From Christensenellales bacterium (GTDB lineage Bacteria; Bacillota; Clostridia; Christensenellales; SZUA-584), in the NCBI GenBank assembly GCA_040768905.1, contig JAXGMA010000001.1:1299806-1363805 (forward strand): a DNA stretch of 64,000 bases, given 5' to 3'. Below the pieces are notes generated by a model. The model was given only the letters and a program-made list of their open reading frames with translations. It had not been told where the DNA came from and ran no database searches. Positions 45,245 through 47,699 of this stretch are shown here, one piece after another. Made by a program: the position numbers and the translations under genes. Numbering within the stretch: the first letter of the stretch is position 1; the number at the start of each line of letters is the position of its first letter.

Positions 45245-46729
45245 TCAGAATAGCGGACGCTGCTTTTCTGCCAGCTGCTCAACAGCGATGACAAACCGGT
45301 CTATCTCCTCTGCCGTGTTATATACGCCAAGCGAGGCGCGCAAAGTGCTGTTCAAACCGAAGCGATGGATCAGCGGCTGTGCACAATGGTGCCCGGCCCG
45401 CACAGCAAACCCAAGCCGGTCCAAGTGTTTGGCGATAGTCTCCGACGGTATGCTGTCTATCACAAAAGAGACCACACCTGTCTTGCCCGGAACCGTCCCA
45501 ATAAGACGCATGCCGGCAATATTTTTAAGCTGCCCAAAAAGCCTTTGGGTGAGCCGCGCTTCGTGCCGCATGATATTTAGCATACCAATATTTTGCATAT
45601 AATCGACGGCTGCGCCAAGCCCGACAGCATCTGCGATGTTTGCTGTGCCTGCTTCAAATTTCTGCGGCGGCTGCGAGAACAGCGTCTGGTCAAAACGCAC
45701 TGATTTGATCATCCCTCCGCCGGTTTGATACGGCGGCATACGGCAGAGCAGTTCCTTGCGCGCGTAAAGCACCCCGATACCTGTCGGCCCGTACATTTTA
45801 TGGCCGGAGAACGCGAAAAAATCTGCACCCAGCGCCAAAACGTCTGAATGTAAATGCGCCACCGCCTGCGCCGCGTCCACAAAAATAAGCGCGCCATGCC
45901 GGTGCGCGATATCGGCCATCTGCCGGACTGGGTTGACGGTACCCAAAACATTGGATACGTACGCCGTTGATACGATCCGCGTTTTTGGTGAAAAAAGCCT
46001 TTCGTACTGGTCAATATCCAGTGCACCGGCCTCATCAACGGGCACTTTTTTAATATAAGCGCCAGTATTTTGGGCGGTAATCTGCCACGGCACGATGTTG
46101 GAATGATGCTCCATTTCCGTAAGGATGATCTCATCGCCCGCTTTTAAGTTCTGCTGCCCCCAGCTGCCAGCGACGAGATTGACAGCTTCTGTCGTGCCTC
46201 GCACAAACACGATCTCATCCTTTGATGCCGCGCCGATAAACCTTTGCAGCTTCGCGCGCGCCGCCTCATAGCTTTCAGTCGCCCGCCTTGCGAGGCTGTG
46301 CGCGCCTCTGTGGATGTTTGAGTTGTATCCGCTGTAATAACAGTCAAGCGCATCTATCACACACTGCGGTTTCTGTGTTGTGGCTGCGTTGTCAAGCCAG
46401 ACAAGCGGATGGCCGTTGATTGATTGACGGAGGATCGGGAAGTCACTTTGCAGGGCTTGCGCATCTAAAAACGTTTGACCGTTATGACGCGTTGTGGGAA
46501 AAGACGGCATAAAATAATACAGGCTGGCTGCTTTAGGCCTTACCGCTGCTGGTTCTGTTTGCATGACAGGCTTGATATGCTGTGCCCCGGAAGAAATATT
46601 TTGATCAGCGTATTCTCCCCAACCGCCTGTCTCCCTCAACATCCGGTTCGCAGTCTCTTTGATCATTTCGGTCAAACCATCTTTAGAACAGCTATTAAGT
46701 GCTAGCCCATACGGGTCATTGATAATCAT
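45245..46729 (-). CDS. SufS-type cysteine desulfurase with ~115-aa N-terminal extension (putative encapsulin cargo)
   Basis: The core starts at DFPILRQSINGHPLVWLDNAATTQKP and has the PLP-lysine region (FSGHKMYGPTG) and the RAGHHCAQP active-site loop. The extension is low-complexity. The start at 46729 overlaps the shell-gene stop by 14 nt. Confidence 0.8.
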   Translation of the reverse strand: MIINDPYGLALNSCSKDGLTEMIKETANRMLRETGGWGEYADQNISSGAQHIKPVMQTEPAAVRPKAASLYYFMPSFPTTRHNGQTFLDAQALQSDFPILRQSINGHPLVWLDNAATTQKPQCVIDALDCYYSGYNSNIHRGAHSLARRATESYEAARAKLQRFIGAASKDEIVFVRGTTEAVNLVAGSWGQQNLKAGDEIILTEMEHHSNIVPWQITAQNTGAYIKKVPVDEAGALDIDQYERLFSPKTRIVSTAYVSNVLGTVNPVRQMADIAHRHGALIFVDAAQAVAHLHSDVLALGADFFAFSGHKMYGPTGIGVLYARKELLCRMPPYQTGGGMIKSVRFDQTLFSQPPQKFEAGTANIADAVGLGAAVDYMQNIGMLNIMRHEARLTQRLFGQLKNIAGMRLIGTVPGKTGVVSFVIDSIPSETIAKHLDRLGFAVRAGHHCAQPLIHRFGLNSTLRASLGVYNTAEEIDRFVIAVEQLAEKQRPLF

Positions 46730-47699
46730 AGTAGCTTCCCACCTCGACATCCTCGAGCACCCCGAGCGCGTCGTCTGCAAGAACGGCAATTGAGAAATAC
46801 AAACTCAGTATGTACGACGCGATACCCCTGTTGTCTATGCTCCCAAGCCGCACAGAAAGGCTGGGTGTATTGACTTCATCCGGCACCCCGGGCTGATGCA
46901 GCCCGATCACACCCTGCTCGCTTTCACCAACACGCAGCAGGATCATGTTCGTTTTCCCCCCCATACCGTTCGCATAGGAGCCTTTGATTTGGAGTTTGTC
47001 ACACGGTAAAAGCGGCACGCCGCGCCAGGTGATAAACGGCGATCCAAAGAAATTGACTGCCACCGGCGGTACCCCTCTTTTGGTGCACTCCCTGCCGAAC
47101 GCTGCAATCGCTCTTGGATGTGCCAGAAAAAAAGCAGGCTTCTTCCATACTTTTGCAAGCAATTCATCCAGATCATCGGGCGTGGGCGTGCCTCTTCTTG
47201 AAAGCACTCTCATATGCGGCGAAGCGGCATTCAGCAGTCCGAATTCTAAATTGTTGATCAGTTCATGTTCCTGTTTTTCCTTCATCGCTTCGATGGTCAG
47301 CCGCATCTGTTCATCCTTCTGACCGATCGGTTTATTAAAGATATCCGTCACGTTGGTGTTCAGGCGAAGTATCGTCTGTATGAGGCTGAGTGTGTACTCT
47401 TTCGGTTTGTCGTCAAGGTCGGCATATGTCTCCGAGATCGCATCTTCATTGATGTGCCTGTAGTTTGACTCGATACGTTTTTCACCGTATTCGTTATAAA
47501 GATCGTCTGCCTGCCTGGCTTTTTTTATATGGTTGACACGGTAAGTGCCGGCTTCAACGGGAACCCACGGCAAAAACTTGAGCAGCCACCGCGGTGTAAT
47601 GCTCTCCATCATCGGCACTGACTTTGTGGTATCAGAAAGACGCCTTGCAGCATCCGGAAGCAAGCTCATATGCCGCATTGTGTAATCGGTCTTATCCAT
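46716..47699 (-). CDS. family 2A encapsulin nanocompartment shell protein
   Basis: 327 aa. Segments [65 protein letters not shown] and [10 protein letters not shown] closely match my recollection of SrpI-type family 2A shells. It is paired with a cysteine desulfurase. The ATG at 47699 has an AAGAGGTG RBS. Confidence 0.75.
   Translation of the reverse strand: [327 protein letters not shown]

What the first reader, a model, noticed from the sequence alone, without database searches (positions are those of the whole stretch)
45245..47699. Family 2A encapsulin shell translationally coupled to an N-terminally extended cysteine desulfurase
The 327-aa protein carries long segments ([75 protein letters not shown]). 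These match what I recall of SrpI-type family 2A encapsulin shells.

The next gene is a SufS-type desulfurase with a ~115-aa low-complexity N-terminal extension, which is the position of the cargo-loading domain in known family 2A systems. Its start (ATG at 46729) overlaps the shell stop by 14 nt (ATGATTATCAATGA).

Such sulfur-storing nanocompartments have been characterised in a cyanobacterium and in Proteobacteria and Actinobacteria. Finding one in a Clostridia-like anaerobe is notable. It lies within 20 kb of two tungstopterin AORs and two orphan MoaD-like sulfur-carrier proteins, and directly downstream of a c-di-GMP regulator.
Basis: partly seen in the sequence, partly recalled or inferred. 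Interest (0 to 1): 0.55.

Follow-up and report, generated by a model that had tools for sequence, protein, structure and literature searches.

The report
Cysteine-desulfurase encapsulin operon in a Clostridia-type genome
Two overlapping genes encode a virus-capsid-like protein shell and the sulfur-releasing enzyme it most likely encloses: a correct identification of a known, already auto-annotated system, here in a little-studied anaerobic lineage with a shortened loading tail.

Summary
On the minus strand, 46716-47699 encodes a 327-aa shell. It matches Pfam SrpI-like (E 7.5e-104), exceeds the NCBIfam family 2A cut-off, and matches the solved SrpI shell at E 2e-102. 45245-46729 encodes a 494-aa SufS-type cysteine desulfurase whose ATG overlaps the shell stop by 14 nt.

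The extension ahead of the catalytic domain is about 95 aa, not 115, and is not low-complexity. It keeps counterparts of both published cargo-loading motifs.

The pair is not rare in Clostridia:
- About 30 Bacillota species representatives carry the same overlapping pair.
- NCBI already names such shells in Vallitalea okinawensis and Clostridiales genomes.

None of the window's neighbours (GGDEF regulator, the AOR and its ThiS/MoaD-like gene that I tested, pta) recurs next to the pair elsewhere, so the proposed functional links have no comparative support.

Lineage-specific points:
- The loading domain is compact (54-151 aa against 155-225 in studied systems).
- The operon is minimal, with no rhodanese or serine acetyltransferase.
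- The shell core is closer to cNMP-domain (2B) shells than to canonical 2A shells.

Verdict: a new member of a known kind, of modest interest.

The parts
46716..47699 (-). Encapsulin shell gene (327 aa). HK97-fold, Family 2, 2A architecture (no cNMP-binding domain).
   Evidence: Pfam PF19307 SrpI-like E 7.5e-104. NCBIfam NF041162 encap_f2a 432.7 bits, above the cut-off of 380. PDB 6x8m SrpI E 2.3e-102 over residues 11-326, and 8t6r A. baumannii E 3e-97. The top 7 Foldseek hits are Family 2 encapsulins, followed by HK97-type phage capsids.
45245..46729 (-). Cargo gene: type II (SufS-like) PLP-dependent cysteine desulfurase (494 aa) with an N-terminal extension.
   Evidence: Pfam Aminotran_5 over residues 110-479, E 5.6e-144. 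TIGR01979 sufS 548 bits, above 475. NF041166 f2_encap_cargo1 662 bits, below the cut-off of 800, matching only profile positions 215-623. PDB 8kg1 E 2.8e-147. The PLP-lysine motif SGHK starts at residue 308 and the catalytic-cysteine motif GHHCA at residue 446.
46445..46729 (-). Putative cargo-loading domain (cargo residues 1-95), ahead of the conserved DFPIL that opens the desulfurase domain.
   Evidence: Not covered by SufS models. Homologous extensions of 54-151 aa occur in 31 Bacillota-clade cargos. In S. elongatus and M. smegmatis this region is necessary for loading; sufficiency was shown for the S. elongatus domain (PMC8049743, PMC11659603).
46631..46675 (-). Motif 1 of the loading domain: LTEMIKETANRMLRE (cargo residues 19-33), the counterpart of the published LARLANEFFS motif.
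   Evidence: Aligns with LARMANEFF of the betaproteobacterial cargo L031 and with the clade consensus L..(L/M)AN(R/E/D)(L/F)Y. A regex finds it in 22 of 31 clade members; by my reading of the alignment, some others carry variants.
46502..46531 (-). Motif 2 of the loading domain: AASLYYFMPS (cargo residues 67-76), the counterpart of the published AASPYYFLDG motif.
   Evidence: (Y/F)YF is present in 31 of 31 clade cargos, in 30 of them 18-40 residues before DFPIL. The motif is defined in PMC8049743.
46716..46729 (-). 14-nt overlap between the shell stop and the cargo start (ATGATTATCAATGA), with GAGGTGGGA (46737-46745) as the likely ribosome-binding site inside the shell's 3' end.
   Evidence: Read directly from the sequence. 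The same 14-nt overlap is found in 29 of 33 related loci, including Proteobacteria. Coupling itself is inferred.
47705..47712 (-). Ribosome-binding site AAGAGGTG for the shell gene.
   Evidence: Sequence.
45122..45152 (-). Terminator-like hairpin plus T-run about 90 nt after the cargo stop. It marks the likely end of the two-gene transcript.
   Evidence: Consensus scan: 8-pair stem followed by TTTTTTT. This is a pattern match only.

Best explanation
This is a two-gene cysteine-desulfurase encapsulin operon.

Shell (inferred by homology): the 327-aa HK97-fold protein should self-assemble into a closed icosahedral shell. In the solved homologues this is 60 subunits, T=1, about 24 nm.

Loading (inferred from conserved motifs): the downstream desulfurase is made from the same transcript. 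Its start overlaps the shell stop, so the two are probably translationally coupled. It should be captured inside the shell through its ~95-residue N-terminal domain. That domain carries two short conserved motifs, ...ANRML... and AASLYYF, joined by a variable linker.

Function (inferred from the A. baumannii and M. smegmatis systems): L-cysteine enters through small pores. The enzyme converts it to alanine plus persulfide sulfur. The sulfur builds up inside the shell as a protected store, out of reach of cytosolic reductants, which would also lower free cysteine.

Shown here: family membership of both proteins, absence of a cNMP-binding domain, conservation of the pair, of the overlap and of the motifs, and retention of catalytic, pore and cargo-site residues.

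Not shown: assembly, loading, sulfur deposition, regulation.
For: Shell:
- PF19307 E 7.5e-104. NF041162 scores above its cut-off.
- About 55% identity over the full length to the solved SrpI and A. baumannii shells.
- The Foldseek top hits are Family 2 encapsulins, followed by HK97-type capsids including HK97 prohead I.
- SrpI pore residues G194 and P196 correspond to G209 and P211, which are invariant in 116 relatives. Cargo-site Y273 corresponds to Y296, also invariant.

Cargo:
- The SufS model scores above its cut-off, and the PLP-lysine and catalytic-cysteine motifs are present.
- The best solved match is 8kg1 at E 2.8e-147.

Pairing:
- Shell followed by desulfurase occurs in 30 of 31 Bacillota-clade loci. 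Nothing else is conserved around them.
- The 14-nt overlap is present in 29 of 33 loci.

Loading domain:
- Both motifs published for SrpI-associated desulfurases have counterparts. The YYF motif is present in 31 of 31 clade members.

Transcript and function:
- There is a terminator-like site after the cargo gene.
- Function in studied systems is described in PMC8049743, PMC10836720 and PMC11659603.
Against: - The cargo scores below the curated cut-off of the NCBIfam encapsulin-cargo model (662 against 800). Its loading domain is less than half the length of the studied ones (95 aa against 225 in S. elongatus and A. baumannii, and 155 in M. smegmatis).
- In M. smegmatis, single motifs alone did not load cargo, so efficient loading by a compact domain is untested.
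- Motif 1 in this window (ETANRML) is a weak match.
- SrpI cargo-site F262 is L285 here, although most clade members have F.
- The AlphaFold models were poor to mediocre (pLDDT 39 and 60).
- No promoter was found between the GGDEF gene and the shell gene.
- No sulfur-responsive RNA element was found.
- Sulfur storage has been shown only in aerobes. The role in a strict anaerobe is extrapolated.
Confidence: 0.87

Rival explanations
1. The machine is the same but the physiological role differs. In this anaerobe the compartment mainly buffers or detoxifies cysteine, or supplies persulfide sulfur to a particular pathway. Candidates would be Fe-S clusters or thiocarboxylated MoaD/ThiS carriers for the tungstopterin of the nearby AORs. 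Long-term elemental-sulfur storage would not be its main role.
For: - Two AOR genes and a ThiS-family gene lie within 20 kb.
- The clade lacks the rhodanese and serine acetyltransferase partners thought to serve remobilisation and cysteine supply elsewhere (PMC10836720).
- The authors of the A. baumannii study themselves propose a detoxification role and species-specific uses.
Against: - The AOR at 51681-53510, its ThiS/MoaD-like gene, pta and the REC-GGDEF gene were each searched against 80 related loci and never found next to the pair.
- The flanks of the closest relatives are all different.
- The ThiS-like gene is co-operonic with its own AOR.
Confidence: 0.2
2. The desulfurase is not encapsulated. 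Its shortened N-terminal region is a degenerate remnant, so the shell is empty or takes another cargo, while the enzyme works free in the cytosol like an ordinary SufS.
For: - The NCBIfam cargo model scores below its cut-off, and the N-terminal part of that profile is unmatched.
- The extension is only 95 aa.
- Related cargos are annotated merely as 'cysteine desulfurase'.
Against: - The short extension is kept in all 31 clade members, with the YYF motif in every one, in 30 of them within 18-40 residues of the catalytic domain.
- The overlapping gene pair is retained across about 30 species while all flanks differ. This argues for selection on the pair.
- The first 100 residues of the S. elongatus domain already load cargo.
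- No sufBCD, sufE or sufU genes adjoin the gene.
Confidence: 0.07
3. The 327-aa protein is a major capsid protein of a degraded prophage, and its adjacency to the desulfurase is accidental.
For: It has an HK97 fold. Phage capsids appear among the weaker fold matches.
Against: - The phage capsid matches have E of 5e-3 or worse and 8-16% identity. The encapsulin matches have E 1e-18 to 1e-26.
- The flanking genes I annotated are metabolic or regulatory, not phage genes.
- The base composition is the same as the surroundings.
- The gene pair is conserved across phyla.
Confidence: 0.01

Closest known systems
SrpI encapsulin with CyD cargo of Synechococcus elongatus PCC 7942 (Family 2A; PDB 6x8m, 6x8t; PMC8049743)
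   Same: - The shell aligns end to end (E 2e-102, about 55% identity in shared columns).
- Both shells lack a cNMP-binding domain.
- The gene order is shell then SufS-type desulfurase with an N-terminal extension.
- Counterparts of both CyD motifs (LARLANEFFS, AASPYYFLDG) are present.
- Pore residues G194 and P196 and cargo-site residue Y273 are conserved.
   Different: - The loading domain is 95 aa instead of 225.
- The shell has 12 extra residues (including NEYGEK) at the site where 2B shells carry their cNMP domain, and 7-8 extra residues near residue 240.
- Cargo-site F262 is L here.
- Pore-charge residue R304 is Q, while R192 is K.
- SrpI is plasmid-borne and induced by sulfur starvation in an oxygenic phototroph. 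Regulation here is unknown.
Acinetobacter baumannii 118362 desulfurase encapsulin (PDB 8t6r; PMC10836720), the system shown to store crystalline elemental sulfur
   Same: - The shell family is the same (E 3e-97).
- The cargo class is the same.
- The loading domain is N-terminal and disordered, with short conserved motifs.
   Different: - The A. baumannii operon has four genes (rhodanese, serine O-acetyltransferase, shell, desulfurase). The window and its whole Bacillota clade have only the last two, which is one of the four published operon types.
- The A. baumannii loading domain is about 225 aa with five motifs.
- A. baumannii is an aerobic host.
Mycobacterium smegmatis Mmp1 encapsulin with Enc-CD (PDB 8wol, 8won, 8kg1; PMC11659603)
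   Same: - The shell matches at E 8e-93.
- The catalytic domain of Enc-CD is the best solved match of the cargo (E 2.8e-147).
- The N-terminal disordered region is required for loading.
   Different: - The M. smegmatis loading region is 155 aa with three MEME motifs.
- Single motifs were insufficient for loading there.
Family 2B (cNMP-binding-domain) desulfurase-linked shells, for example Petroclostridium sp. X23 (L029), Clostridia MAGs L028 and L036, and Chlorobiaceae
   Same: - These are the closest relatives of the window's shell outside its own clade in core sequence. Identity is 64-71% for L028, L029, L036 and L034, and 61% for Chlorobiaceae, against 53-57% for canonical 2A.
- They share the NEYGEK.I segment.
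- The 14-nt overlap with a short-extension desulfurase is the same.
   Different: - They carry an insert of about 150 aa containing a cNMP-binding domain between YRVN..KK and NEYGEK. The window has none, so by the published architectural definition it is 2A.
- NCBIfam 2B also scores above its cut-off (427.6 against 400), but in two separate stretches.

Membership tests
Family 2A encapsulin shell | Significant match to the curated family models (Pfam PF19307 SrpI-like; NCBIfam NF041162 encap_f2a) above their cut-offs | tested here: met
   PF19307 346.7 bits against a cut-off of 22.8. NF041162 432.7 bits against 380.
Family 2A encapsulin shell | HK97 phage-like fold (A-domain, P-domain, E-loop, N-arm) | tested here: met
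   Full-length homology to four solved Family 2A shells at E 1e-90 to 1e-102. An AlphaFold model (pLDDT 60, core residues 130-260 above 80) hits 6x8m, 8t6r, 8wol, 9bje and others at E 1e-18 to 1e-26, then HK97-type phage capsids. Model quality is mediocre, so the homology carries the weight.
Family 2A encapsulin shell | No internal cNMP-binding domain (the 2A versus 2B criterion of Andreas & Giessen 2021) | tested here: met
   Pfam finds only SrpI-like and no PF00027. There are 31 residues at the insertion site, against about 178 in 2B shells and 19 in canonical 2A.
Family 2A encapsulin shell | Clusters phylogenetically with 2A rather than 2B (the earlier criterion of Nichols et al. 2021) | tested here: not met
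   Core identity is 61-71% to desulfurase-linked 2B shells and 53-57% to canonical 2A. In a neighbour-joining tree, 2B shells nest inside the Bacillota clade. There is no bootstrap, and sampling is biased to relatives of the query. Andreas & Giessen dropped this criterion in favour of the architectural one.
Family 2A encapsulin shell | Self-assembly into a closed T=1 icosahedral particle of about 24 nm | not testable with these tools
   Needs expression and electron microscopy.
Family 2A cysteine-desulfurase cargo | Match to NCBIfam NF041166 (f2_encap_cargo1) above its cut-off | tested here: not met
   662.2 bits against a cut-off of 800. Only profile positions 215-623 (the catalytic part) align. 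The shortfall reflects the short, divergent N-terminal domain.
Family 2A cysteine-desulfurase cargo | SufS-type (type II) PLP-dependent cysteine desulfurase domain with catalytic residues | tested here: met
   TIGR01979 548 bits against 475. Aminotran_5 E 5.6e-144. The SGHK and GHHCA motifs are present.
Family 2A cysteine-desulfurase cargo | Encoded directly next to the shell gene | tested here: met
   14-nt overlap. The pair is conserved in 30 of 31 clade loci, and the overlap in 29 of 33 loci.
Family 2A cysteine-desulfurase cargo | N-terminal extension carrying the conserved loading motifs (LARLANEFFS-like and AASPYYFLDG-like) | tested here: met
   AASLYYFMPS is a close match and is conserved in 31 of 31 clade members. 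ETANRML is a weak match in the window, but the clade consensus is clearer. The length is well below that of studied examples.
Family 2A cysteine-desulfurase cargo | Physical encapsulation dependent on the N-terminal domain | not testable with these tools
   Needs co-purification and truncation experiments.

The most novel reading that the evidence does not exclude
The Bacillota short-tail systems would be a distinct lineage. Their ancestors would be cNMP-domain (2B) desulfurase shells that lost the regulatory domain, and their loading domain would have been pared down to two motifs on a linker of about 40 residues. That would be a natural minimal loading tag. In strict anaerobes they would act as a stand-alone cysteine sink or sulfur depot, without a rhodanese or acetyltransferase partner.
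Probability: 0.25. Interest if true: 0.45.

Novelty: new member of a known kind. Interest (0 to 1): 0.3.

Why it matters
Desulfurase encapsulins are the only known protein-shell sulfur stores. They have been studied in a cyanobacterium, a proteobacterium and mycobacteria. I found no paper on one from a Firmicute or a strict anaerobe.

This window adds a clean example from that lineage, carried on a 2.47-Mb contig. Together with its relatives it offers three practical points:
- A naturally compact loading domain (95 aa here, as short as 54 aa in relatives). It could define the minimal requirements for loading and serve as a shorter engineering tag.
- A shell lineage in which the cNMP-binding domain is present or absent among close relatives. 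That is useful for asking what the domain does.
- An annotation gap. NCBI's cargo model misses these short-tail desulfurases, so such operons are only half recognised.

None of this changes the picture of what the system is.

Tried and rejected
- **Link to neighbouring genes.** phmmer of 18 window neighbours (38-57 kb) against all ORFs of 80 related loci gave no hits. A positive control with an ABC ATPase worked. The GGDEF domain alone was found only in L081, in an unrelated PAS-GAF-GGDEF-HD protein. I therefore rejected the AOR/MoaD and c-di-GMP links as unsupported.
- **Conserved accessory genes in the clade.** All-against-all clustering found only the shell, the cargo and spurious antisense ORFs. 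No rhodanese or serine acetyltransferase appeared.
- **Regulatory RNA or riboswitch.** Rfam gave no match in 44900-49200 at E up to 1, and no match in the whole window at gathering scores. The 5' leader does not fold significantly better than shuffles (z = -1.56).
- **Promoter.** No consensus promoter lies between the GGDEF gene and the shell gene. A weak hairpin plus U-tract at about 47807-47827 might end the GGDEF transcript. This is unresolved.
- **Structure prediction.** The second, from 116 sequences, was mediocre (pLDDT 60) but sufficient for a fold search.
- **Source organism.** Exact look-ups of both proteins returned no contig record. The cluster look-up gave only 'NCBI, contig of 2,474,581 bp'. 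The taxon is inferred from relatives and gene content only.
- **Firmicutes in published surveys.** The Family 2 sheet of the 2021 survey is truncated in the held copy, and the 2024 paper has no held supplements. I could not establish whether Firmicutes are listed.
- **Horizontal-transfer signature.** GC and GC3 of the pair match the surroundings.
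Full report
**Observation**

Both genes lie on the minus strand. The shell ORF runs from ATG 47699 to TGA 46716-46718 and is 327 aa. The desulfurase ORF starts at ATG 46729 and ends at 45245 (494 aa). The overlap ATGATTATCAATGA at 46716-46729 is exactly as described, and GAGGTGGGA lies 9 nt upstream of the ATG. 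The same 327-aa and 494-aa products are on record from an NCBI contig of 2,474,581 bp, so these are also the deposited gene calls.

**What the two proteins are**

- **Shell, curated models.** It matches Pfam SrpI-like (PF19307) at E 7.5e-104 and exceeds the curated cut-off of NCBIfam 'family 2A encapsulin nanocompartment shell protein' (432.7 against 380 bits).
- **Shell, solved structures.** It aligns end to end with the S. elongatus SrpI (6x8m, E 2.3e-102), A. baumannii (8t6r, E 3e-97) and M. smegmatis (8wol) shells.
- **Shell, fold.** A first AlphaFold model from 34 close homologues was useless (pLDDT 39). A second from 116 sequences was mediocre overall (pLDDT 60) but confident in the core. 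Its seven best Foldseek matches are Family 2A and 2B encapsulins (E 1e-18 to 1e-26), followed by HK97-type phage capsids including HK97 prohead I. The HK97 fold is therefore supported, mainly by homology.
- **Shell, key residues.** SrpI pore residues G194 and P196 correspond to G209 and P211. Cargo-site Y273 corresponds to Y296. All three are invariant across 116 relatives. Cargo-site F262 is L285 here.
- **Cargo.** It is a type II desulfurase. TIGR01979 SufS scores 548 against a cut-off of 475, and Aminotran_5 covers residues 110-479. The SGHK lysine and GHHCA cysteine motifs are present. The closest solved structure is 8kg1 at E 2.8e-147.

**The N-terminal extension**

It is 95 residues up to the conserved DFPIL, not about 115, and its composition is ordinary rather than low-complexity. 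The NCBIfam encapsulin-cargo model scores 662 bits, below its cut-off of 800, because only the catalytic part of the profile aligns.

The extension still looks like a loading domain. Nichols et al. defined two motifs in SrpI-associated desulfurases, LARLANEFFS and AASPYYFLDG (PMC8049743). The window has AASLYYFMPS at residues 67-76 and a weaker ...ETANRML... at residues 25-31.

I aligned 31 cargos of the same clade. (Y/F)YF is present in all 31, in 30 of them 18-40 residues before DFPIL. The AN-x-(L/F)-(Y/F) motif is found by a regex in 22, and by my reading of the alignment some of the others carry variants. A betaproteobacterial relative has LARMANEFF in the aligned position.

Published experiments show three relevant things:
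- The N-terminal region is necessary for loading.
- The first 100 residues of the S. elongatus domain already load cargo.
- In M. smegmatis, single motifs alone do not suffice.

**Distribution**

A scan of one genome per GTDB species returned 80 loci. About 30 of the best ones come from Bacillota. They include Christensenellaceae, Clostridia, Clostridiales, Acetivibrio and Eubacteriales MAGs, and Petroclostridium sp. X23. Their shells are 61-76% identical to the window's.

In 30 of 31 clade loci the shell is followed by a desulfurase. The 14-nt overlap occurs in 29 of 33 loci examined, including Proteobacteria, so it is an old family trait.

The protein database lists more than 100 clusters at 60% identity or above. 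NCBI already names members 'family 2A encapsulin nanocompartment shell protein' in Vallitalea okinawensis, Clostridiales and Bacillota genomes. The partner enzymes are named only 'cysteine desulfurase'.

Published surveys count 1281-1462 such operons in 11-13 phyla. I could not verify whether Firmicutes are among them. I found no paper on a Clostridia system.

**Context**

The upstream gene is a REC-GGDEF protein and the downstream gene is a phosphotransacetylase. Further out are sugar-acid catabolism genes, two AORs, a ThiS-family gene that overlaps its AOR by 4 nt, and a glycyl-radical enzyme with its activase.

None of the 18 neighbours I tested recurs near the pair in 80 related loci (positive control). 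Clustering of all neighbours in the clade finds only the pair itself, with no rhodanese and no serine acetyltransferase. The three additional relatives' loci I inspected (shells 80%, 77% and 66% identical) all have different flanks. One of them has an unrelated PAS-GAF-GGDEF-HD protein downstream.

The pair is therefore a self-contained module of the published minimal operon type.

A terminator-like hairpin follows the cargo gene at 45132-45152. No promoter or regulatory RNA was detected upstream. Base composition matches the surroundings.

**A lineage-specific nuance**

Over 296 shared core columns, the window's shell shows these identities:

| Compared shells | Identity |
|---|---|
| cNMP-domain (2B) desulfurase-linked shells of Clostridia and a gammaproteobacterium | 64-71% |
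| Chlorobiaceae 2B shells | 61% |
| Canonical 2A shells, including SrpI and A. baumannii | 53-57% |

The window's shell also keeps the NEYGEK.I segment that directly follows the cNMP domain in 2B shells. It has 31 residues at that site, against 19 in canonical 2A and about 178 in 2B. In a neighbour-joining tree, three 2B shells nest within the Bacillota 2A clade (no support values, biased sampling).

By the architectural definition now in use, which depends on absence of the cNMP domain (PMC8346489), the window's shell is 2A. By descent it probably belongs with desulfurase-linked 2B shells, which implies loss or gain of the domain within this lineage. This fits that paper's own remark that phylogeny and architecture do not coincide.

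**Mechanism**

The most likely mechanism, by homology with the studied systems (PMC8049743, PMC10836720, PMC11659603), is as follows:
- Sixty shell subunits form a T=1 particle.
- The desulfurase is tethered inside through its two-motif N-terminal domain.
- Cysteine enters through small pores.
- Persulfide sulfur accumulates, shielded from cytosolic reductants.

What such a store does in a strict anaerobe is open. It could act in sulfur-starvation buffering, in cysteine detoxification, or as a privileged sulfur pool.

**Verdict**

The claimed rarity and the contextual links are not supported. This is a new member of a known, already auto-annotated kind. Its modest specialist interest lies in the compact loading domain, the minimal operon and the 2B-like shell lineage.

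Noticed in passing
window 46716-47699 compared with loci L028, L029, L034, L036, L039 and PDB 6x8m, 8t6r: The 2A-architecture shell is closer in core sequence to cNMP-domain (2B) desulfurase-linked shells (61-71%) than to canonical 2A shells (53-57%). It retains the NEYGEK.I segment that follows the cNMP domain in 2B. In a neighbour-joining tree, 2B shells nest inside the Bacillota 2A clade, which suggests domain loss or gain within the lineage.
   Followed up: partly
window 45245-46729; related cargos P0125, P0163, P0184, P0202, P0211: NCBI's encapsulin-cargo model (NF041166) scores below its cut-off on this short-tail desulfurase. Relatives next to encapsulin shells in Bacillota are named only 'cysteine desulfurase' or 'SufS family'. 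This is an annotation gap for the whole clade.
   Followed up: partly
L011 (JBLNCA010000034.1, labelled Burkholderiales) and L037 (JBLNDC010000582.1, labelled Bacteroidota): Two MAGs from one project, labelled as non-Bacillota, carry Bacillota-type shell and short-tail cargo pairs. The shells are 73% and 60% identical to the window's. This is either binning contamination or horizontal transfer.
   Followed up: no
L081 8592-11243 (ENA ERZ21869576 contig_29): In a relative whose shell is 77% identical to the window's, an 883-aa PAS-GAF-PAS-GGDEF-HD protein lies directly downstream of the pair. In the window, a REC-GGDEF protein (47854-48771) lies directly upstream. No GGDEF gene was found near the pair in the other loci searched, nor in the gene table of L083, so this is probably coincidence.
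   Followed up: yes
window 51430-53510 (minus strand): An 84-aa ThiS/MoaD-family gene ending in GG overlaps the stop of an aldehyde:ferredoxin oxidoreductase gene by 4 nt. It sits in a run of sugar-acid genes: KDPG aldolase, D-2-hydroxyacid dehydrogenase, cupin-type GPI, Zn-ADH and GFO/IDH/MocA. It is therefore co-operonic with the AOR, not orphan.
   Followed up: partly
window 25374-28825 (minus strand): The second AOR (26954-28825) is followed by a 120-aa ORF (26567-26929) that I judged cupin-like from its sequence alone, without a family search. A 378-aa ORF (25374-26510) follows that. No MoaD-like gene was seen beside this AOR.
   Followed up: no
window 30191-34230 (minus strand): A glycyl-radical enzyme (PFL-like, 781 aa) lies with its radical-SAM activase and a GntR/FCD regulator. 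It sits downstream of a sugar-type ABC transporter (34252-39220). This is consistent with a strictly anaerobic host.
   Followed up: no
window 47807-47827 (minus strand): A weak hairpin followed by a U-rich tract lies in the 154-nt gap between the REC-GGDEF gene and the shell gene. It may terminate the upstream transcript. A 7-bp inverted repeat, GAGGATGTAAACAGTCCTC, lies about 30 nt before the shell's ribosome-binding site. Neither is statistically notable (fold z = -1.56).
   Followed up: partly
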